From: a virus
Lineage: Duplodnaviria > Heunggongvirae > Uroviricota > Caudoviricetes
Virus record (IMG/VR): IMGVR_UViG_3300031088_000819
Direction: 5' to 3' (one strand)
Length of the DNA stretch: 14,014 nt
A program made the translations under genes and the position numbers. Each line of letters opens with the position of its first letter. The stretch's first letter is position 1. The notes beneath the pieces are model-generated. The model was given only the letters and a program-made list of their open reading frames with translations. It was not told the origin of the DNA and searched no databases. Shown here piece after piece: positions 1,190 to 11,511 of the stretch.

Positions 1190-1227
1190 TTATTAGAAAA
1201 TCTTCCCACTAAGGTAGGAGGTTGCAA

Positions 1228-1812
1228 ATGTCAAATGCACCACGATTTCATACTGGCCCCAATGGCCCAGGTCCGTGTCGCGCTCAATCTGGCGGTCGAG
1301 GTTGTCCCTTTGACCCCAACGCCACAGGAGAAAATCACTATGATTCTATGGAAAAGGCAGTTGCGGCCTTCGAAGATAAAATGGCTAATGAATATGGTTT
1401 AAATGTCACAGTTGAGAAGCCTGAACATGGTTGGGACATAAGTGAGGGTAAAGAGCTCTTTAGCTATAGCAATTCTATACATGGTACTTCGGTAGATGCT
1501 AAAGTTGCCAACATAGATGAAGATGGCACAGCAACTGTCGCTTTGGATTTTTATGCTATAGACGAGGGTGATTCTGACGCTGTAATAGATGATGTTCTTA
1601 GCAGACTCGATGAGAGTGGCTATGGAAATGATGAAGTCAATTTTGAAATCACCAGCAAGTATGGCATTGATAGATCTGAGGCAATCTATGATCCCGAATA
1701 CGAAGATGATGAACCAGATGTTAAATATCCTCTAGAACTGGGTGGGGTTGGGAAAGCCTACGGCGTAGCAAGACGCGGGAGTGACGGGAAATGGGAAAAC
1801 GCTAGTGAATAG
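1228..1812 (+). CDS. Hypothetical acidic protein with N-terminal H-C-C-H (CxA..CPF..HY) leader
   Basis: AGGAGG at 1216-1221, 6 nt before ATG 1228, so this start is preferred over TTG 1222. N-terminus RFHTGPNGPGPCRAQSGGRGCPF...HYDSMEKAVAAFEDKM; the remainder is about one quarter Asp/Glu. Followed by a terminator. Confidence 0.8.
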   Translation: MSNAPRFHTGPNGPGPCRAQSGGRGCPFDPNATGENHYDSMEKAVAAFEDKMANEYGLNVTVEKPEHGWDISEGKELFSYSNSIHGTSVDAKVANIDEDGTATVALDFYAIDEGDSDAVIDDVLSRLDESGYGNDEVNFEITSKYGIDRSEAIYDPEYEDDEPDVKYPLELGGVGKAYGVARRGSDGKWENASE

Positions 1813-1848: not shown

Positions 1849-1881
1849 GGGGGCGCCAGAAATTTCTGGTGCCTCCTTTTT
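1849..1881 (+). terminator. Intrinsic terminator after the acidic-protein gene
   Basis: GGGGGCGCCAGA-aatt-TCTGGTGCCTCC, a 12-bp stem with two G-U pairs, followed by TTTTT. Confidence 0.8.
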
Positions 1882-1894
1882 GTGTTCAGATCTT

Positions 1895-1903
1895 TGTTAG
1901 ACT
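1895..1903 (+). promoter_or_regulatory. Extended -10 element (TGnTAGACT) for a probably leaderless glf transcript
   Basis: TG 1895-1896, TAGACT 1898-1903, then 6 nt to ATG 1910. No Shine-Dalgarno, and it lies just past a terminator. This geometry is typical of actinobacterial leaderless mRNAs. Confidence 0.6.
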
Positions 1904-1909
1904 GAATCT

Positions 1910-3307
1910 ATGACACAATTTGAACCGGATCTTCTCGTAGTTGGTGCAGGCATCTTTGGCCTCACCGTTGCCCGCAAGGCTGCCGATGACGGCCATAGAG
2001 TGCTTGTGCTCGAGCGCCGAAGCCACATCGGTGGCAACTGCTATGATTACCGCGATCCAGAGACTGGCGTCATGGTACACAAGTATGGCTCCCATCTTCT
2101 CCACTCCCCCAACGCTGAAGTCTGGGACTTTCTAGGTCGCTTCACAGATTTCTCCAACTATGAGCACCGAGTTTTTGCCAACGCCGGCGGACAGGTCTAC
2201 TCCTTTCCCATGAACCTGAGCCTCATTGCTCAGGTCTATGGTCGCTATTTCAGTCCCGAAGAGGCTAAGGAACTCATCACAGAGGAAGCTTCGGAGTTTA
2301 GCTCCAAAGAGGCAAAGAACCTCGAAGAGAAAGCCATCAGCCTCGTGGGTAGGAAGCTCTACGAGAAGTTCATCAAGGGCTACACCTCGAAGCAGTGGCA
2401 AACTTCTCTCACAGAGCTCGATCCCTCCATCATCACTCGTCTGCCGGTGCGCTACAGCTTTGACAATCGCTACTTCAGTGATAAGCACCAGGGGCAGCCA
2501 GCCGAAGGCTACACGGCCATGTTTCAGAAGATGGTGGATCACCCTCTCATAGAGGTTCGCTACGGTGTGGACTACTTTGCCGAGAAAGCTGCAGGAAACT
2601 TCGAGAACATTCCAACGGTCTACACGGGGCCTCTGGATGAGTACTTCGGCTACGATCTAGGTAGGCTCCAGTGGCGCACGGTGGACTTCGAGAACGAAGT
2701 TCTGGATGTGGATGATTTCCAGGGCACTTCGGTAATGAACTACAATGACGAGGAAGTTCCCTACACTAGGATCCTTGAGCACCAGCACTACGATCCCCAA
2801 GCCGCTGATAGCAAGGTCGCTGGCAAGACAATCATCAGCCGGGAGTACTCCCGCTTCGCTGAGCCCGGGGATGAGGTCTACTACCCCATCAATAGCGATG
2901 CTAACAGGGAGCTGGCAGCTGTCTACAAGAGGCGAGCTAAAGCCGAAGAAGAGCGGGGAGTCTACTTCGGTGGAAGGCTGGCTACTTTCACATATCTTGA
3001 TATTTGGCAGGCAACAAATAGTGCTATGCATCTCTACGGAAAGAAGCTCCAGGATAAGCTATCCATTGCTGCCTCGGTTCCGTTGAGAGTGCAACAGCTC
3101 CGAGATCTCATAGAAGAGCTTGTGCTGATTGTTCGGGAGTTCGGCGGCGAGGGTCCCGGCGATGAGATTAAATACGAGCTCGTTAGGCGCACTGGAGTGG
3201 CTATGAGCGATGCTCATTACATCGCCAACAGTGCAGTGGCTGACCACAGGATTGAATATAGTCTGCGCAGCGATAGAATCAAGCTGATCGGAGAGATCGG
3301 GGACTAG
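1910..3307 (+). CDS. glf: UDP-galactopyranose mutase (Glf/UGM) with an ~80-aa C-terminal extension
   Basis: FAD Rossmann motif VVGAGIFG, ERRSHIGGNCY, YGSHLLH, YEHRV, KQWQT, RLPVRYSFDNRYF, YTRILEH, YYPIN and GGRLATFTYLD match the flavin-dependent UGM family along its whole length. The ORF continues about 80 aa past where known UGMs end. Confidence 0.95.
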   Translation: MTQFEPDLLVVGAGIFGLTVARKAADDGHRVLVLERRSHIGGNCYDYRDPETGVMVHKYGSHLLHSPNAEVWDFLGRFTDFSNYEHRVFANAGGQVYSFPMNLSLIAQVYGRYFSPEEAKELITEEASEFSSKEAKNLEEKAISLVGRKLYEKFIKGYTSKQWQTSLTELDPSIITRLPVRYSFDNRYFSDKHQGQPAEGYTAMFQKMVDHPLIEVRYGVDYFAEKAAGNFENIPTVYTGPLDEYFGYDLGRLQWRTVDFENEVLDVDDFQGTSVMNYNDEEVPYTRILEHQHYDPQAADSKVAGKTIISREYSRFAEPGDEVYYPINSDANRELAAVYKRRAKAEEERGVYFGGRLATFTYLDIWQATNSAMHLYGKKLQDKLSIAASVPLRVQQLRDLIEELVLIVREFGGEGPGDEIKYELVRRTGVAMSDAHYIANSAVADHRIEYSLRSDRIKLIGEIGD

Positions 3308-3515
3308 AGCTCAGCGGGAGCCTAATTCCAATCTACCATGATCCCACGAGCTGCCATCCTGAAGGTCGATGTCTTGTTTTTCTAGAATCTGGCAAAACCG
3401 AACCTCATGGGTCTTTAGATATAGCTTTCACAGGGAATCTCTGGCGGAAATCTCGTTAGAGTGATCTCACTAGTAGCACCACCCAAAATAGGTTGTAGAG
3501 AGGGAAACCAACACA

Positions 3516-4997
3516 ATGGCCGAAACACCAAAAAAGCCCAAGAGCAGAGGGCCGATTCCGCTCTTAGGCGATGGCGCCAAGAATAGGAATCGCAGGGTTA
3601 GCCTCCCCGCGGAGAGCACCATGGAGTTCCATCCGGAGTTCCCCATCGGAGACATCGTTCCCCGGGAGAAGGAAACTCGCTACCACTCCGAGGACACTCG
3701 CCAGGTGATCCTCGACCAGCTGGAAAACTTCGGCTGGGTTGCTCCCATTGTGTTGGATGCCGATCACAACATCGTGGATGGCCAGTATCGCTATGAGATC
3801 GCCCTCGACCAGGGCTTCAAAACGGTGCCCGTGGTGGTGAGCACGGGCGTCTCCAAGGAGAACGGCACTACGGACCTCTTCCACATGCTTGGTAACAGGA
3901 TTGTGGAATGGGACAAGTGGAACTTTGCGGCAACTGATGCTGTGCTCAAGGAGCTCGATGGTGGCCTGACCACTGAGAAGCTCCTTGGCCACGACGTGCC
4001 CTCGGAGAAGGGCAAGTTCCGTGAAATCGCCAAGCGGATCGGCTGGTTTGTGGACATCGTCCCCAAGGTGCTCACGGGTTCCTCCGTAACGCTGGAGAAG
4101 CTGGCTCGGCTGCTCACCAAGCAGCTCGCTGGCAAGTACCACTACGATCCCGCACAGCTGCTCTTCATCGAGTCCTTCAGGGAAGAGCTCGAAAACACTC
4201 GCAAGGAAATGATCGCCAATGGCGATGTCGTGGGCGGTGTGGAGATGAAGCTCAAGAAGCACCAGAACGAAGAGGCCGATCTCATGGCCCGCTCCCAGAA
4301 GGTGGCCGAAGAGCAGGGCATCGAACTCGAGTACCAGTGGATTGACACAGACGCCACGGAGAGCACTCCAGCTGAGGATGTGGATAGCGGCGTTCGAGCC
4401 ATCGAAGATAGTGAGGTTCTAGGCACGGCCGTCTTCAGCGCAGACGCTGAGATCCAGTACATCATCGAAAAGGTGGCCCGACTGGACAGGGAGGGCCGCG
4501 TCCAGGTGCAGACAGCTGCCGACATGAGGGCGCTTTTCAAGCCCCAGCCCGACGCCAAGCTCATGAACCTCCGGCAGTTCAAGCTCATGGCCTACCACTT
4601 CGGCGACATGGGTCTCCAAGAGGCGGAAGATTTCTACAATCTCCACTCCGCCGAGGCCTTCAACGCCAAGGTCGAAGAGATCATGGCCAACGGCAAGTCC
4701 ATTCCGGCAGCCCGCTCAAAGAACTTCCCACAGAACGAGGAGGAGACCCGGGCGGAGCTCAAGAGGCTCGCCGAGGAGGATGAGGCTCGGCTCGCCAAGG
4801 AGTTGTCCAAGTCCAAGGCCGCTGGTCCAAAGGAGCTAACTGTGGCTCAGCTTAGGAAGCTCATCTCTGACAATGGCGCTAAGCCCTCTGGCACCAAGAA
4901 GCAGGAGCTCCAGGATCAGCTCCGTGAGCTGGGCTTCGATGGCTATGGGAACCCCATCGAGAAGACCGAAGAGCTAGCAGGGGGAGAAGAGCAGTAA
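3516..4997 (+). CDS. Phage-type ParB/Srx-like domain protein with C-terminal SAP/Rho-N-like DNA-binding motif
   Basis: N-terminal ETRYH..LENFGWVAPIVLD..IVDGQYR..VPVVV..GNRIVEWDKWN resembles the ParB-like domain of phage DNA-modification proteins. C-terminal ELTVAQLRKLISDNGAKPSGTKKQELQDQL is a helix-extension-helix pattern. The stop overlaps the next start (TAATG). Confidence 0.8.
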   Translation: MAETPKKPKSRGPIPLLGDGAKNRNRRVSLPAESTMEFHPEFPIGDIVPREKETRYHSEDTRQVILDQLENFGWVAPIVLDADHNIVDGQYRYEIALDQGFKTVPVVVSTGVSKENGTTDLFHMLGNRIVEWDKWNFAATDAVLKELDGGLTTEKLLGHDVPSEKGKFREIAKRIGWFVDIVPKVLTGSSVTLEKLARLLTKQLAGKYHYDPAQLLFIESFREELENTRKEMIANGDVVGGVEMKLKKHQNEEADLMARSQKVAEEQGIELEYQWIDTDATESTPAEDVDSGVRAIEDSEVLGTAVFSADAEIQYIIEKVARLDREGRVQVQTAADMRALFKPQPDAKLMNLRQFKLMAYHFGDMGLQEAEDFYNLHSAEAFNAKVEEIMANGKSIPAARSKNFPQNEEETRAELKRLAEEDEARLAKELSKSKAAGPKELTVAQLRKLISDNGAKPSGTKKQELQDQLRELGFDGYGNPIEKTEELAGGEEQ

Positions 4998-6013
4998 TGG
5001 ATCACATCTACATCCCCTCTCGCGGCAGAGCGAAGACGGCCTCCACCCACAAGCACTTCGAGTTCTTCGGCCACCACGGCTGGACCTATGTGGTGGAACC
5101 CCAGGATCAGCTCAACTACATTCGGATGCTCGAAAAGCAGGGCATAGAAAACCCCTATGAGCATGTCTTTGTCTTCGACGTGGACATCTACAAGGAGGCC
5201 TACGACAGGGTTAACAATCCTCTGGGCTACAACTACTTCGATGACCTCGGTTGGCGCCCTGGCCTCACCACGGGCCCTGGCCCAGCGCGCAACGCGATCC
5301 ACCAGCTGGCTCGGGAGCGGGGCCAAGAGCACTACTACATGCTCGACGATGACATCCTCAACTTCGGAGTGGATTCCTTCTTCTTCCAGAAGGGTGTCTA
5401 CAGGCAGGCCACGAGCAAGGCGCCCGCCAAGGAGCGGATCAATCTCGTAAAGTTCTTCGAGCTCTTCGAACGCTGGCTCGATAAGTACGAGAACGTGGGC
5501 CTAGCGGAGTTCGAAAAGGCCGGCATGGCCATGAACCACCGTAAGAACAAACATCTTTCGTTCAACTCGAAAACTTACTCCTGCATTAGGATCCCCACGA
5601 AGATCGAATCTCCCTGGGAAGGCCGCTACAATGATGATGTCTGCGCGAGTCTCAATGTGCTGAGAAAGGGCTTCGTCAATGTGAGCTCCAAGATGGTGGC
5701 CTACCAGACCCCCGAGTCCCAGAAGCAGGCCGGCGGCATGACGGAAGCTTTTGCGGCAGTTGGTGGAACCTTCGACAAGGTGAAGTATCTGCTGAAGGCC
5801 TACCCCGAGGTTTCCGATCTGGCGCTGAAGTTTGGAAGAATGCACCATCAGGTTTCCTACAACCGCTACAACAGCCCCCTGATCCTCAAGCCGGGCGCCT
5901 CGCTGGATGACCTGGTCTTCGACCTCGAGGATGTCTTCGGCGACCAGTTGGCCGACAGGGTGCTAGCCGAGGGGAAGTTCTTGGATGGCATAGCTCTGGA
6001 GCATTTGCTCTAA
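4997..6013 (+). CDS. TAGT/GREB1-like GT-A fold glycosyltransferase (phage DNA-modification type)
   Basis: IYIPSRGR, YVVEPQD, FDDLG..TGPGPARN, metal-binding YYMLDDDI, KTYSCIRI, WEGRYNDD, QKQAGGMTE and FGRMHHQVSY follow, in order, the motifs of the TET-associated glycosyltransferase family related to T-even beta-glucosyl-HMC alpha-glucosyltransferase. Confidence 0.85.
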   Translation: MDHIYIPSRGRAKTASTHKHFEFFGHHGWTYVVEPQDQLNYIRMLEKQGIENPYEHVFVFDVDIYKEAYDRVNNPLGYNYFDDLGWRPGLTTGPGPARNAIHQLARERGQEHYYMLDDDILNFGVDSFFFQKGVYRQATSKAPAKERINLVKFFELFERWLDKYENVGLAEFEKAGMAMNHRKNKHLSFNSKTYSCIRIPTKIESPWEGRYNDDVCASLNVLRKGFVNVSSKMVAYQTPESQKQAGGMTEAFAAVGGTFDKVKYLLKAYPEVSDLALKFGRMHHQVSYNRYNSPLILKPGASLDDLVFDLEDVFGDQLADRVLAEGKFLDGIALEHLL

Positions 6014-6145: not shown

Positions 6146-6199
6146 ATGTATGATTGTTCTGACACCACCCGTTCCCAACTAACAAAGGCAACGCTCAAA

Positions 6200-7960
6200 G
6201 TGAGTAAATTTATCACCACAATCCTCGCAGGTAGCCTCGTGTTTTCTCCCCTGTCGGCCGTTGCGGCTCAGGATTCTAGCGAAGAGCCTGCTCCCCTGCC
6301 CAGCTTCGAAGCTGCCATCCCCACTGCCCCTCCCGTGACCCAGATGCCTCTTCCCGTCGAGGAAGAGAACCCCACGGAGACACCGTCACCGAGCCCTTCT
6401 CCTTCGGATCTCCCCACTGTGGCGCCTCAGCCAAAGGCGGAGGTTCCAGAAGTTGAGCTTTCGGAGGTCGAGGAATCCCCTGCTTCCGAAGAGCCCGCCG
6501 AGGAGACCCCTGAGGATGTCCCCCAGGAGGACCTCGAGGCGGTTCAGGAGAAGTCTGCCGATGATCTCGAGCTCGATGCCGCTCTGCAGGCGAGCGCTAA
6601 GAAGGTGGTCAATGGTAACTATGTGCTTCCCCTGGCCTCCAAGAGCTACTGGCTTTCGAGCTATTTCGGTCCTCGCTGCCCCGTGGCTCCGGGTGCTAGC
6701 ACCTTCCATGGCGCCATCGACATGGCTGCACCGCGTGGTACTGATCTCTACGCTATTACCAGCGGCACGGTTGAATCCGTTGACCGAGCCAACGGCACAC
6801 TGAGGATTCGCTTCTCCAAGGATCTTCTCATTAGCTTCGGCCACATTGACAACCCCACGAAGTTCGTGAGCATCGGCCAGAAGGTCTCCAAGGGCCAGAA
6901 GGTCGCCGAGGTTGGCAACACGGGCATCTCCAACGGTCCCCACCTCCACCTCGCTATCCAGCACAAGGGCACTTGGGTTGATCCTCTGAAGTTCCTCGCT
7001 GATCGCGGCATCAATGTGAAGAGCCACGCTACTCGTGTGGCGGCAAACACTCCCACGAATTGCACTGTCTACACAACCGCTAAGACGGGGCTCAAGCAGT
7101 CTGCTAGCAATGATTCTAAGACCCTGCGGGTGCTCCCCAAGGGCACTCAGCTCTCCATGGCTGCCACTAACTCTTCGGGTTTCTGGAAGGTGAAGACAAC
7201 CGATGGTAAGACGGGTTACATCCACGCCCAGCGAGCCAGCACCCACAAGAACCCGAACACTCAGCCTAGCGTTTCCTACGGTTCCCGCAAGGCCAATGAG
7301 AAGTACTCTCTCCGCTATTCGCGCCATCTCTTCGACTACCCCGGTAGGACCGAGTGGTCCCGAGGCATCATGGAGACAATTAAGGCCAAGCAGCATGTTG
7401 TGACCACTGGCCGCACGGCTAACGGCTACACTGAGGTTAAGTGGGGATCCCAGAAGGGCTGGCTGGCTCTGGATGCCGCTGATAAGGTCACGGAGAAGCC
7501 CAAGAGCGTGTCTGTCTACCGCTTCTGGTCTCCCAAGTTCGGCGATGCCCACTTCTATACCTCCAACAAGGCTGAGGCCGACAAGGTCCGCACAACTGAC
7601 AAGAACTGGACTTACGAGGGCGTGGATTTCAAGATCTGGCCCCTCCAGGGTGGCAAGTGCGCTGAGGGAACTGCCCCCATCCATCGCTTCTGGTCTTCGA
7701 AGCTGAGCTCCCACCTCTACACTGCTAGCGCTACCGAAGCCAAGAATCTCCGCAAGGCTGGTTCGGGTTGGTCGTCGGACGGCATTGTCTTCTGTGGTGG
7801 CACCCAGGCGGCCAGTGGCACTAAGGCTGTCCATCGCTTCTGGTCCCCGAAGTTCAAGAAGTATTTCTACACCGCTAACCAGGCGGAGGCTAAGAAGATC
7901 CGCAGTAGCGACCGCAACTGGAACTACGAGGGTGTGTCCTTCTATGCTCCCAACTCCTAA
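6200..7960 (+). CDS. Secreted M23-family peptidoglycan endopeptidase with two SH3-like domains and three C-terminal RFWS..HFYT repeats (DUF5648-like)
   Basis: ORF is open from 6146. GTG 6200 is preferred because it starts a signal peptide (SKFITTILAGSLVFSPLSAVAA). A Pro/Glu linker follows, then Zn motifs HGAID (HxxxD) and HLH, SH3b-like blocks ending KTGYIH and KGWLA, and three repeats V/I-Y/H-RFWS..H/Y-F/L-YT..EA. Confidence 0.9.
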   Translation: MSKFITTILAGSLVFSPLSAVAAQDSSEEPAPLPSFEAAIPTAPPVTQMPLPVEEENPTETPSPSPSPSDLPTVAPQPKAEVPEVELSEVEESPASEEPAEETPEDVPQEDLEAVQEKSADDLELDAALQASAKKVVNGNYVLPLASKSYWLSSYFGPRCPVAPGASTFHGAIDMAAPRGTDLYAITSGTVESVDRANGTLRIRFSKDLLISFGHIDNPTKFVSIGQKVSKGQKVAEVGNTGISNGPHLHLAIQHKGTWVDPLKFLADRGINVKSHATRVAANTPTNCTVYTTAKTGLKQSASNDSKTLRVLPKGTQLSMAATNSSGFWKVKTTDGKTGYIHAQRASTHKNPNTQPSVSYGSRKANEKYSLRYSRHLFDYPGRTEWSRGIMETIKAKQHVVTTGRTANGYTEVKWGSQKGWLALDAADKVTEKPKSVSVYRFWSPKFGDAHFYTSNKAEADKVRTTDKNWTYEGVDFKIWPLQGGKCAEGTAPIHRFWSSKLSSHLYTASATEAKNLRKAGSGWSSDGIVFCGGTQAASGTKAVHRFWSPKFKKYFYTANQAEAKKIRSSDRNWNYEGVSFYAPNS

Positions 7961-8030: not shown

Positions 8031-8169
8031 AGCGCTGGAGAGGGTAGGGTTGGACGGGGCGGCGATGTGATATGCCAAAGAAATAACTAAAGATTTTCGG
8101 TGCTAAATTAGCGCGCGAAATGCCCCTTTGACATCTAACCAGAGCAGTTTTCTTGCCAGAAGGAATGTA

Positions 8170-11100
8170 ATGTACAGAAAAAAGAAACCCACTGGAGATT
8201 CTTTCTTCAGGAAAAAAATAGTACCGCTTGCCCTCGTGGGTAGTTTAGTTTCCGGTGGGCTCATTCTCACCGCGGCTCCAGCTAATGCAGACATTCCTGG
8301 TGCCACTGTCTCCGGTTGGGATGGAGAGCCGATTGCTGTTGGGCCGAATGTTGAATCGGAAGTTGTTAGCCTCTCTGGTCTTCGGCCGGGAGCGGACGTA
8401 ATCTACTACAGGAACATCAGCAGCACTGGCCAGCTGAACTCTTCTTTTACCAACGTGGGAGCTAGGCTAACGGTTGGCGAAGATGGCACCCTCGATGCGC
8501 CAATTGGTTGGTTCGCAGCCTCCTCTGCCCCAGCCTATAACATAACCCTTGGAGCAGACGGTAAAATCAACTGGGCTGCAAAAACAACCTCCGCGGGCAA
8601 GGTGAGGCTCGTTCAGGAGCAAGAGAGCGGCCAAACTAACATCAATAATCCCGACAACTACTTCGAGTTCCCTGTAGAACTAGAGGAACATGTGCCGGAA
8701 GTTGGAGAGCTTCCAGCGGATGGCTATGTGGGCAGTGAGATCACAGCAGAGGTTGGCAATGTTCAAGCGTCAGCTCGCACCAATCCTGTAAACACGGGTC
8801 AAGGACGTGGGAATTCAGCAACTGCGGCTGCCCTTGAGCTTCTGGACGCTTCAGATGGGAGTCTCGCCCGTAAGAACGTATCCTACAGTGAAACTGATGC
8901 CAATGGAGATCAGACACTCACTATTAGGATTCCCGAAAATGCACCAAGTGGCACTGCCACTCTCCAAGCCGGCGGCATGTCAAATATTGAAACATTGAAT
9001 AGCCCTCTGAGCGATACCCGCTTGGCTGAAGCCGCCATGGAGAGGGTTGACCCCAGTGAGATCTCTCTGGTTGAGCTTCCCGGCGGAGATGATGAAACCT
9101 ACGATCAAGTGGTAATGGACATTCCGTTCTCTGGTGATGATCTCCTCGGACTCGAACGAGATTTCACCATCTATACGGCTCTGCTGGAAAATGTAAATCC
9201 CGTTGAAAAGGGCGATTTCGTAGTTGTCAGCGGAGCCGACTATCGCCCCGGCGACGTAGTACTCGTTAGCGTGGATGGCGTGGGAGCCATTGAGGTTGAA
9301 GTAGATGCAGATGGCAACTACTTGGCGGAGATTCCAACCACAGAATCGACGCCCTCCGGTGAACACGCTGTAGTGGTAACTACTCCAAATGCCGATGCGC
9401 CTCGCCGCACAGGTGTGGCAGAGGTTGAGGGGGATGACTCAGCCCCAATAGCATCTGCAGAGCTTGTCGTCCCAACGAGGACATTCGATGTCACTGGAAC
9501 TGGATTCACTCCGGGTGTTACCTATAGGCTTAATCTCGTCGATACGGCCAACGGAAATGCTCTTAGCTCTAGCGTTACGGGTAGATCCCTCATCACCAAT
9601 GCCGAAATGGGTGCGTCAGTGACGGGGGTCGCCGACGATGAAGGGAATCTCACCATCACGGCGGCATTCGATCCCGCAAAAGCTCCCCACGAAGTGCGAA
9701 ACGCAAATGGCGAGCTCCTCCCCAATAGGATGGCCATTACAGTGCAAGGAAGCAGCGAGATAGTTGCCGAACTACCCTTTACGATCTTCCATGCTGATCC
9801 CGCGATTGACGAGATTCCCAAGGAAGTCTACGCTGGCCAAGAAGTGGCTGTGGTCGGTCACAATCTGTTCAAGCTCGAAGGTGCTGGCGCAGGCATCTAT
9901 GGCGGACTCGTTCGTACTAGCTTGGGCATTCTCGGACTTCCCGAAGACGCCCCCATCGATCTCAATGCTTTCCTCATCAATGTTAAGGACTTCGAAGCTG
10001 CAGGTCAACTCGAAGGAACCGTAGAGGAAAAATTCGCTGCGATGAGGGCGGCGGTTGCTGATCTGGGAAGCGCAGCCGTTGAAAACATTGGAGACAGTGC
10101 TACAATCGCCCTACGAGTGCCCTCCGATGCAAAGTCGGGCGAATACATGATTATGCAGCACGCCTATGCGAATCCCGCCTATGTGATTGGTTCGGGTGCT
10201 GTTGAATCTGGCGCTGGAGTCACCCAGGAGCTTACAGTTAGGACAGCAATACTCAATGATACAGACGCTGTAAAGCAAGGCGAAACAATCGTGGTAACCG
10301 GTTCCGATTACATCCCCGGTGACACTGTAACAGTTACCATCGAGGGCATCGGCGAAAGAACCGCTGTCGTTGCTGATGATGGAAGCTATTCCGTCGAGTT
10401 CCAAACTACTGGAGCTACTACTGTTGGAAATCACACTGTAACAGCAGTTGTTGAAAACGCTCCCACTCGCGAAGGCTCTGTAGAGGTAATTGCCGACGAG
10501 CAGGTCGTCTACGATCCCGTAGTTGAAGCTGGTTCCAGCGTGCCCGGTGGAGAACTCCCCGTGTCCGGTGGTGGTTGGATCCCAGGTAACGAAGTTGAGA
10601 TCGTTCTTACAGATCCCGACGGTAACCCCGTGGGCGAATCCGTAGTGGTCACAATAGATGAAGATGGCAACATCCCCGAGGGCACAGTTCTTCCAGTTCC
10701 CGAAGGTGCTGAACCTGGAAGCTACACTGTGGTTGCCACCGATCCCGTAGCTGAACTTGTCAGGGAGGCTCCAGCGGAAATCGTTCCCTCCGAGGGTCCC
10801 GAAGTTCCCGTCTACGACCCCACAATTAGCGGAGAAAACGTCGAAGCAGGACAGCGTGCTGCTATCGAGGGTGGCGGATGGCCAGCTCTTACAGAGGTTG
10901 AGATCGTCATCCTTGACGAAAATGGTAACACCATCGGGGAACCCATCACTGTTATAACAGATGAGAATGGAAACCTTCCCGAAGGCACTTCCTATCTCAT
11001 TCCCGAAGGCACTACACCAGGAAGCTACATAGTACGCGGTTCTACCGAAGAGGGTCTTGTGAGAGAGTCTACTCTCGCAGTTCTTCCCACAGAGCAAGAA

Positions 11101-11511
11101 CCCGGTGAGCCTGGTGAACCTGGTGAACCTGGAGAGCCCGGTGAACCTGGGGAGCCTGGAGAGCCCGGTCAGCCCGGTCAGCCCGGTGAACCTGGTGAGC
11201 CTGGAGAGCCTGGTGAGCCTGGTCAGCCCGGGGAACCTGGTGAGCCTGGAGAACCTGGTGAGCCTGGAGAGCCTGGAGAGCCTGGAGAAACAGAAATTCC
11301 CACTCCCACAGATCCTGGTAAGAAACCAGAACCCCAGGAGAATGGCAACGAAGAAGGTCGTAACGGTGGCGCTAAGACAGATCCCGAAGAGGGCTCCCTC
11401 GCAAAAACCGGTGGTGAAGTTGCTACTCCGCTACTTGTAGGAGCTGGTGCTACAATCCTCGGAGGATTGGCGCTTCTCATTGGTGGTCTTCGCCGGCGTT
11501 TCCGCGCCTAA
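8170..11511 (+). CDS. Large sortase-anchored surface protein with Ig-like repeats, collagen-like stalk and LAxTG sorting signal
   Basis: AGGA at 8161-8164 before ATG 8170 (ORF track starts at TTG 8128). Signal peptide ending AAPANA; several V.V.G.G(Y/F/W).PG..V beta-sandwich repeats; (PGE/Q)21; LAKTG followed by a hydrophobic helix and RRRFRA tail. Confidence 0.92.
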   Translation: MYRKKKPTGDSFFRKKIVPLALVGSLVSGGLILTAAPANADIPGATVSGWDGEPIAVGPNVESEVVSLSGLRPGADVIYYRNISSTGQLNSSFTNVGARLTVGEDGTLDAPIGWFAASSAPAYNITLGADGKINWAAKTTSAGKVRLVQEQESGQTNINNPDNYFEFPVELEEHVPEVGELPADGYVGSEITAEVGNVQASARTNPVNTGQGRGNSATAAALELLDASDGSLARKNVSYSETDANGDQTLTIRIPENAPSGTATLQAGGMSNIETLNSPLSDTRLAEAAMERVDPSEISLVELPGGDDETYDQVVMDIPFSGDDLLGLERDFTIYTALLENVNPVEKGDFVVVSGADYRPGDVVLVSVDGVGAIEVEVDADGNYLAEIPTTESTPSGEHAVVVTTPNADAPRRTGVAEVEGDDSAPIASAELVVPTRTFDVTGTGFTPGVTYRLNLVDTANGNALSSSVTGRSLITNAEMGASVTGVADDEGNLTITAAFDPAKAPHEVRNANGELLPNRMAITVQGSSEIVAELPFTIFHADPAIDEIPKEVYAGQEVAVVGHNLFKLEGAGAGIYGGLVRTSLGILGLPEDAPIDLNAFLINVKDFEAAGQLEGTVEEKFAAMRAAVADLGSAAVENIGDSATIALRVPSDAKSGEYMIMQHAYANPAYVIGSGAVESGAGVTQELTVRTAILNDTDAVKQGETIVVTGSDYIPGDTVTVTIEGIGERTAVVADDGSYSVEFQTTGATTVGNHTVTAVVENAPTREGSVEVIADEQVVYDPVVEAGSSVPGGELPVSGGGWIPGNEVEIVLTDPDGNPVGESVVVTIDEDGNIPEGTVLPVPEGAEPGSYTVVATDPVAELVREAPAEIVPSEGPEVPVYDPTISGENVEAGQRAAIEGGGWPALTEVEIVILDENGNTIGEPITVITDENGNLPEGTSYLIPEGTTPGSYIVRGSTEEGLVRESTLAVLPTEQEPGEPGEPGEPGEPGEPGEPGEPGQPGQPGEPGEPGEPGEPGQPGEPGEPGEPGEPGEPGEPGETEIPTPTDPGKKPEPQENGNEEGRNGGAKTDPEEGSLAKTGGEVATPLLVGAGATILGGLALLIGGLRRRFRA
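11101..11289 (+). repeat. In-frame 9-bp tandem repeat encoding 21 x Pro-Gly-Glu/Gln
   Basis: CC(C/T)GGN(G/C)A(A/G) repeated 21 times, counted from the sequence; synonymous variation between copies. Confidence 0.97.

What the first reader, a model, noticed from the sequence alone, without database searches (positions are those of the whole stretch)
3062..3307. UDP-galactopyranose mutase fused to a winged-helix-like C-terminal domain
Seen: after the normal UGM end (GGRLATFTYLD..AMHLYGKKL) the frame continues for ~80 aa with the pattern helix (QQLRDLIEELVLIVREF), GG loop, helix (GDEIKYELVRRTG), helix (MSDAHYIANSAVAD), beta-hairpin (RIEYSL-RSD-RIKLI). Established: that order is winged helix-turn-helix topology, and characterised bacterial UGMs lack such a tail. 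Inference: the domain tethers a sugar-nucleotide enzyme to DNA or to the modification complex, or autoregulates the gene. This would independently support a DNA-linked role.
Basis: partly seen in the sequence, partly recalled or inferred. Interest (0 to 1): 0.7.

Follow-up and report, generated by a model that had tools for sequence, protein, structure and literature searches.

The report
Sugar mutase with detachable winged helix
A sugar-converting enzyme of a giant phage-like element really does carry a small winged-helix domain at its end, but that domain is an optional module that is fused, free-standing or missing in close relatives, so it does not independently link the enzyme to DNA modification.

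Summary
The fusion is real. ORF 1910-3307 is an intact UDP-galactopyranose mutase (aa 1-384), a loose linker and a ~70-aa domain that AlphaFold models as a winged helix (pLDDT 91). An independent assembly carries the identical gene, and 11 of 33 mutases in this metagenome clade carry the tail (dN/dS about 0.12), so it is no read error. The 95%-identical sister locus, with the same ParB-TAGT neighbours, lacks exactly 292 bp including the whole tail. A second ParB-TAGT locus also lacks it, and none of six other fused loci shows ParB or TAGT in the flanks held. Elsewhere the domain is a separate gene behind a GIY-YIG-like gene, occurs as tandem paralogs, or is fused to unrelated proteins. Tails are swapped between near-identical mutases (99% body, 67% tail). 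Best reading: an unnamed small winged-helix family that is joined to and split from the mutase at a recombination hot spot, each part working largely on its own. A true DNA-tethering role stays possible (about 0.22). No paper on this fusion was found; the scan noted it only on this window.

The parts
1910..3061 (+). UDP-galactopyranose mutase domain, aa 1-384
   Evidence: Pfam GLF E 2e-74 and NAD_binding_8 E 3e-21; PDB UGMs E 2e-140 over residues 6-384; active-site residues invariant
3062..3082 (+). Linker, aa 385-391, poorly ordered; length and sequence vary among fused homologues
   Evidence: pLDDT under 50 at 387-391; 18 to 30 residues between the last UGM helix motif and the first invariant tail leucine
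3083..3289 (+). Winged-helix domain, aa 392-460 (H1 392-410, S1 414-416, H2 417-428, H3 432-444, wing 448-459), unnamed family
   Evidence: AlphaFold models; fold searches; no Pfam or PHROG family above cut-off
3263..3268 (+). Invariant Leu452-Arg453 at the wing tip, the best candidate nucleic-acid contact
   Evidence: 24 of 24 aligned members
3061..3352 (.). 292-bp segment (tail, stop codon and spacer) absent from sister locus L006, bounded by a 4-bp AGCT repeat at 3057-3060 and 3349-3352
   Evidence: blastn and exact junction
1849..1876 (+). Terminator-like hairpin upstream of the mutase
1898..1903 (+). Possible -10 hexamer 6 nt before the ATG (leaderless start); inferred from sequence only
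   Evidence: sequence
3415..3422 (+). Conserved TTAGATAT motif upstream of the ParB-like gene; probably a promoter element, suggesting ParB-TAGT can be transcribed apart from the mutase
   Evidence: same motif in L006, L011 and about 50 nt upstream of the mutase in six other loci
3516..4997 (+). ParB-like / SAP-like protein (neighbour, weak Pfam hits); not linked to the tail
   Evidence: ParB_N E 0.027, SAP E 0.002, both under cut-off; present beside tail-less mutases
4997..6013 (+). TAGT glycosyltransferase (neighbour); not linked to the tail
   Evidence: PF20691 E 2e-18

Best explanation
The tail is a member of a small, unnamed winged-helix family of phage-like elements, probably nucleic-acid-binding (inferred from the fold and the invariant wing arginine). 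Its gene is an optional cassette directly behind the mutase, at a site where GIY-YIG-like genes and other cassettes come and go. Recombination there repeatedly puts it in frame with the mutase, swaps it for a relative, splits it off or deletes it. The mutase ends in a helix followed by a loose linker and tolerates the passenger. Each half is kept by selection for its own job: the mutase makes a furanose nucleotide sugar, the winged helix does whatever the free protein does. Shown: fold, distribution, exact indel, swaps, purifying selection. Inferred: DNA binding, functional independence, the role of the endonuclease-like genes, and the order of events (gain in the window's lineage, then loss in L006).
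For: Sister L006 (94% DNA identity, same NucS-thioredoxin-mutase-ParB-TAGT order) lacks exactly 292 bp between AGCT repeats and encodes a 386-aa mutase; L011 is also tail-less. One 90% cluster holds 4 tailed and 4 tail-less members. Presence needs at least 7 changes on the mutase tree. P0023 and P0150 are 99% identical in the body, 67% in the tail; the window's tail is closest to P0150 (84%) although the bodies share 75%. L002 (fused) and L003 (split) are 95-98% identical, L003 having a 275-aa GIY-YIG-like gene and a 105-aa gene between mutase and free tail gene, whose DNA is 97% identical to the fused tail. Tandem paralogs follow in L003, L007, L012. The domain is also stand-alone or fused to a dATP/dGTP pyrophosphohydrolase and unknown proteins. 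Linker length varies from 18 to 30 residues. dN/dS is similar for fused-fused (0.11-0.12) and fused-free (0.11-0.14) pairs with the window.
Against: Three divergent tail types (about 70-84%, 51% and 31% identical to the window's) are all fused in frame to the mutase, and a third of the clade is fused; such recurrence is what selection for proximity would also give. The only mutase-linked free copies seen (L003, and L004 by synteny) lie behind an endonuclease-like gene, so the fusion may be the older state. Short contigs limit the neighbourhood test, and whole genomes were not available.
Confidence: 0.57

Rival explanations
1. Functional tether: the winged helix binds phage DNA and so concentrates UDP-furanose production where a DNA glycosyltransferase works; it is beneficial but not essential.
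For: Winged-helix fold with invariant wing Arg; recurrent in-frame fusion of three tail types and purifying selection; a relative is fused to another nucleotide-pool enzyme, PF04447; a phage UGM is proposed to supply UDP-galactofuranose for DNA galactosylation in Rhizobium phage RL38J1 (PMC13326640); TAGT is next door in this window.
Against: No co-variation with ParB-TAGT. Phage UGMs of the RL38J1 group align only to about residue 368 of the query and the tail has no match in 50,697 phage records. The window's tail is net acidic (10 K/R, 14 D/E, pI 5.1) and helix 3 has no conserved basic residue. The product is a small diffusible metabolite (own knowledge).
Confidence: 0.22
2. Protein-docking module: the winged helix binds another phage or host protein rather than DNA and brings the mutase to it.
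For: The best VIA-align rows are protein-binding winged helices (cullin WHB, Z 9-10); acidic surface and non-basic helix 3; the domain is appended to unrelated proteins.
Against: Z-scores are near-tied with DNA-binding members; no partner gene co-varies with the tail; the invariant wing Arg fits DNA contact.
Confidence: 0.11
3. Autoregulation: the fused protein binds an operator at its own promoter and couples expression to nucleotide-sugar or flavin state.
For: Fold shared with MarR, IclR and BrxR-type regulators.
Against: Fused loci do not share an upstream region: the window and L002 have different leaderless-type starts, and the one shared motif lies upstream of tailed and tail-less mutases alike. 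The linker is loose and variable.
Confidence: 0.08
4. Artefact or recent read-through of non-coding DNA.
For: Close homologues stop near 3060.
Against: Identical in an independent assembly; ten other fused proteins; dN/dS about 0.12; confident fold.
Confidence: 0.02

Closest known systems
Actinobacterial UDP-galactopyranose mutase Glf (PDB 5EQF/5BR7, 4RPG; Pfam PF03275)
   Same: Full-length alignment over residues 6-384, E 2e-140, invariant active-site residues kept
   Different: No solved or cellular homologue examined has the tail (97 cellular hits, longest 436 aa, none matches the tail profile); the loop at 358-366 is hypervariable in this clade
Phage UGM of Rhizobium phage RL38J1 and Pootjesviridae (PMC13326640)
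   Same: Phage-borne mutase near DNA glycosyltransferase genes, proposed to supply UDP-galactofuranose for DNA modification
   Different: About 43% identical and no tail match; T4-like hosts and a 5-hydroxycytosine pathway, which was not tested here
Winged-helix domains (BrxR/CapW WHD, MarR, IclR, STIV F93, cullin WHB, DsrD)
   Same: Same H-S-H-H-S-S topology; TM about 0.6-0.7, Z up to 10
   Different: No sequence-level family match; acidic, no basic residue in helix 3
T4 free-standing Seg endonuclease loci (PMC2988022)
   Same: GIY-YIG-like genes sit beside a conserved gene whose flanks are mosaic, as expected from co-conversion
   Different: The 275-aa protein has only a sub-threshold GIY-YIG hit (E 0.077); no cleavage site or activity shown
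Deletion-born gene fusions (PMC12803068)
   Same: In-frame fusion between genes that are separated by extra DNA in a near-identical relative (L002 versus L003)
   Different: Here two whole domains are joined, the state flips several times, and the direction is not established

Membership tests
UDP-galactopyranose mutase (Glf) | GLF domain plus N-terminal FAD-binding Rossmann motif | tested here: met
   PF03275 250 bits (cut-off 26.3), PF13450 75.8 bits
UDP-galactopyranose mutase (Glf) | Conserved active-site residues (His62, Tyr158, Trp163, Arg177, Tyr188, Asn277, Arg287, Tyr325, Arg356, Tyr362, Asp364; roles from own knowledge) | tested here: met
   Present in the query and invariant in the clade; aligned to PDB 5EQF
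UDP-galactopyranose mutase (Glf) | UDP-Galp to UDP-Galf activity and sugar specificity | not testable with these tools
   Needs an enzyme assay; sugar-pocket loops vary in the clade
Winged-helix (wHTH) fold | H1-S1-H2-H3-S2-S3 topology | tested here: met
Winged-helix (wHTH) fold | Structural superposition on solved winged helices | tested here: met
   VIA Z 10.1, rmsd 1.8, 66 residues; Foldseek probability 1.0
Winged-helix (wHTH) fold | Binds DNA through helix 3 and wing | not testable with these tools
   Invariant wing Arg453 for; acidic charge and non-basic helix 3 against
A named wHTH family (MarR, ArsR, IclR, BrxR WHD, DsrD) | Profile match above the family cut-off | tested here: not met
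   No Pfam hit for the tail; best HTH hit among 24 members E 0.015; Atlas named clusters under 0.9
Component of a ParB-TAGT DNA-modification module | Tail co-occurs with ParB-TAGT | tested here: not met
   1 of 3 mutase-ParB-TAGT loci has the tail; 1 of 7 fused loci shows ParB-TAGT in the flanks held
Component of a ParB-TAGT DNA-modification module | Physical binding of the tail to ParB or TAGT | not tested
   No job was run for this pair
Free-standing GIY-YIG homing endonuclease (neighbour in L003, L015) | GIY-YIG catalytic domain above cut-off | tested here: inconclusive
   PF01541 E 0.077, under cut-off; repeated Cys/His motifs seen

The most novel reading that the evidence does not exclude
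Giant actinobacterial phage-like elements have repeatedly attached a new winged-helix family to a nucleotide-sugar mutase (and a relative to a dNTP pyrophosphohydrolase) to localise precursor supply on their own DNA, with variable active-site loops tuning which furanose sugar is put on DNA.
Probability: 0.2. Interest if true: 0.7.

Novelty: new variant of a known kind. Interest (0 to 1): 0.36.

Why it matters
It adds an undescribed domain architecture (mutase plus winged helix) and an unnamed winged-helix family, and gives a natural matched pair: two 95%-identical mutases in the same gene context, with and without the tail, which makes the tail's effect directly testable. It also removes one supposed line of support for the DNA-furanosylation idea at this locus; that idea must rest on the TAGT neighbour and the RL38J1 precedent. 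If tethering were true, it would be a rare case of a metabolic enzyme addressed to phage DNA.

Tried and rejected
Sequence error or read-through: rejected. Pfam, PHROG and PDB-sequence searches gave the tail no family; ESM Atlas gave only unnamed clusters at 0.92-0.93 and named ones under 0.9. P0009 (826 aa repeat hit) was dropped as a low-complexity match; it does not match the tail profile. Tail searches in IMG/VR, JGI and GTDB contigs and in cultured phages found nothing. A two-copy complex prediction of the tail gave no verdict. No whole genome is held and the related records could not be searched. Literature searches found no mutase-winged-helix fusion. The TAGT region of Aeromonas phage 65 shows no annotated mutase within 5 kb. 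No in-frame start with a clear ribosome-binding site was seen at the head of the window's tail (by eye). No model coordinates were available for a surface-charge map.

Full report
Observation. The frame 1910-3307 encodes 465 aa. Residues 6-384 align with solved actinobacterial UDP-galactopyranose mutases at E 2e-140 and those proteins end there; Pfam gives GLF and the FAD-binding motif and nothing for the last 81 residues. An AlphaFold model of the tail from 14 homologues has pLDDT 91 and the order helix, strand, helix, helix, hairpin. The full-length model repeats this for residues 392-459 behind a low-confidence linker at 387-391. Foldseek, VIA-align and the Atlas return winged helices almost throughout, with no single family standing out. 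The sequence is not an error: an independent assembly is identical over 11.6 kb.

Setting. The mutase belongs to a clade of 33 metagenome proteins at 63-95% identity, clearly apart from cellular actinobacterial Glf at about 58%. Some lie on contigs of 570-670 kb, near NucS and, in several, NAD-salvage, SMC-like, pilus or RHS genes. Earlier notes of this scan call the window's genome a phage of about 475 kb; I could not test that, as no genome is held.

Distribution of the tail. Eleven of the 33 proteins carry it; none of 97 cellular homologues does. Its presence needs at least 7 changes on the mutase tree, and one 90% cluster contains four tailed and four tail-less members. The closest relative, L006, has the same gene order including ParB and TAGT, 94% DNA identity, and lacks exactly 292 bp (3061-3352) between two AGCT copies, giving a 386-aa mutase. 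Its end keeps the KLQDKL junction typical of tailed members, so a deletion in L006 is the likelier direction (inference). The next relative, L011, also has ParB-TAGT and no tail. Conversely L002, L005, L008, L012 and L014 are fused and continue into a different conserved 166-aa gene; L014 has no ParB or TAGT within 10 kb either side; L007 ends after a paralog. So the tail does not track the ParB-TAGT pair.

A mobile module. The domain exists as stand-alone genes of 82-90 aa and fused to other proteins, one being a dATP/dGTP pyrophosphohydrolase from Tsukamurella. L003 is 95-98% identical to fused L002 but has a 382-aa mutase, then a GIY-YIG-like 275-aa gene with Cys/His repeats, a 105-aa gene, the free tail gene (97% identical in DNA to the fused tail) and a paralog. 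L015 has a similar endonuclease-like gene behind a tail-less mutase and no tail nearby. L005, first seen as a free tail, is a fused gene with a one-base frameshift on a 737-bp contig. Tails are exchanged: P0023 and P0150 share 99% of the body and 67% of the tail, and the window's tail is nearest to P0150 (84%) though the bodies share 75%; other fused tails are only 51% and 31% identical. Linkers run from 18 to 30 residues. Free-standing endonucleases are known to co-convert flanking DNA (PMC2988022), which would explain the mosaic 3' end; that step is inference.

Function. The tail is under purifying selection: dN/dS 0.11-0.14 against four relatives, like the mutase body. This shows that the domain matters, not that the fusion does, because fused and free histories are mixed. 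Leu452-Arg453 in the wing are invariant in 24 members, and Tyr437 and Ser441 in helix 3 nearly so, which fits nucleic-acid contact; but the window's copy is acidic (pI 5.1) and helix 3 has no basic residue, and the best structural matches include protein-binding winged helices. No tail-specific operator was seen: the one shared upstream motif precedes tailed and tail-less mutases, and in the window it lies before ParB instead.

Mechanism. Most likely (0.57) the winged helix is an autonomous small protein whose gene is an optional cassette behind the mutase and is joined, swapped, split and lost by recombination, both halves working largely on their own. A real but non-essential tether to DNA (0.22) is not excluded, since three divergent tail types are fused in frame and a third of the clade is fused. 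Protein docking (0.11) and autoregulation (0.08) are weaker.

Comparison with known systems. The enzyme meets the sequence criteria of Glf. A phage mutase has been proposed to supply UDP-galactofuranose for DNA modification in RL38J1 (PMC13326640), and TAGT is described as a DNA-sugar transferase in T-even phages (PMC13390438), so a DNA-linked role for this mutase is reasonable on other grounds; those phage mutases show no such tail. I found no paper on a mutase-winged-helix fusion.

Verdict. Observation confirmed; interpretation partly supported; new variant of a known kind; interest 0.36.

Noticed in passing
window 2981-3007 (aa 358-366) and homologues: The stretch between invariant Arg356, Tyr362 and Asp364 is hypervariable in this clade: 23 variants of a 14-residue motif among 33 proteins, against 3 among 97 cellular homologues; aa 51-60 and 151-160 are likewise more variable. 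Could reflect changing sugar specificity or escape from a neighbouring endonuclease. The cellular set is only the top hits, so it may understate cellular variation.
   Followed up: partly
window 3415-3422; L007, L008, L009, L012, L014, L015 about 50 nt upstream of the mutase: A conserved TTAGATAT-like motif, possibly an element-specific promoter.
   Followed up: partly
window 1222-1812: A 196-aa acidic ORF in an AT-richer patch with its own terminator; absent from sister L006 and replaced by an endonuclease-like gene on the other strand in L011. The 5' side of the mutase is also a variable cassette site.
   Followed up: partly
L003 857-2302 and 3465-4292; L002 64-1509; L011 4753-5946; L015 11171-12733: GIY-YIG-like genes with many Cys/His repeats flank the mutase on either side in several relatives.
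   Followed up: partly
L003 4882-5133; L007 9878-10072; L012 1656-1901: A basic paralog of the winged helix (pI about 9.4) directly follows the first, neutral-to-acidic copy; a heterodimer is conceivable but untested.
   Followed up: no
P0010 / P0139 (Tsukamurella tyrosinosolvens): The same winged helix at the C-terminus of a dATP/dGTP pyrophosphohydrolase (PF04447).
   Followed up: no
L011 3469-4157: NucS is broken by a frameshift near codon 115, intact in the window.
   Followed up: no
L068 1771-2490: An unrelated mutase with a different C-terminal extension of about 200 aa, not matching the tail profile.
   Followed up: no
L009 4814-9883; L015 3848-9211: RHS/YD-repeat proteins directly upstream of the mutase in two relatives.
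   Followed up: no
window 8128-11511 and 6146-7960: A 1127-aa surface protein with a Gly-x-Pro repeat and a sortase-like end, and an M23 peptidase-SH3-DUF5648 protein, on a phage-like element.
   Followed up: no
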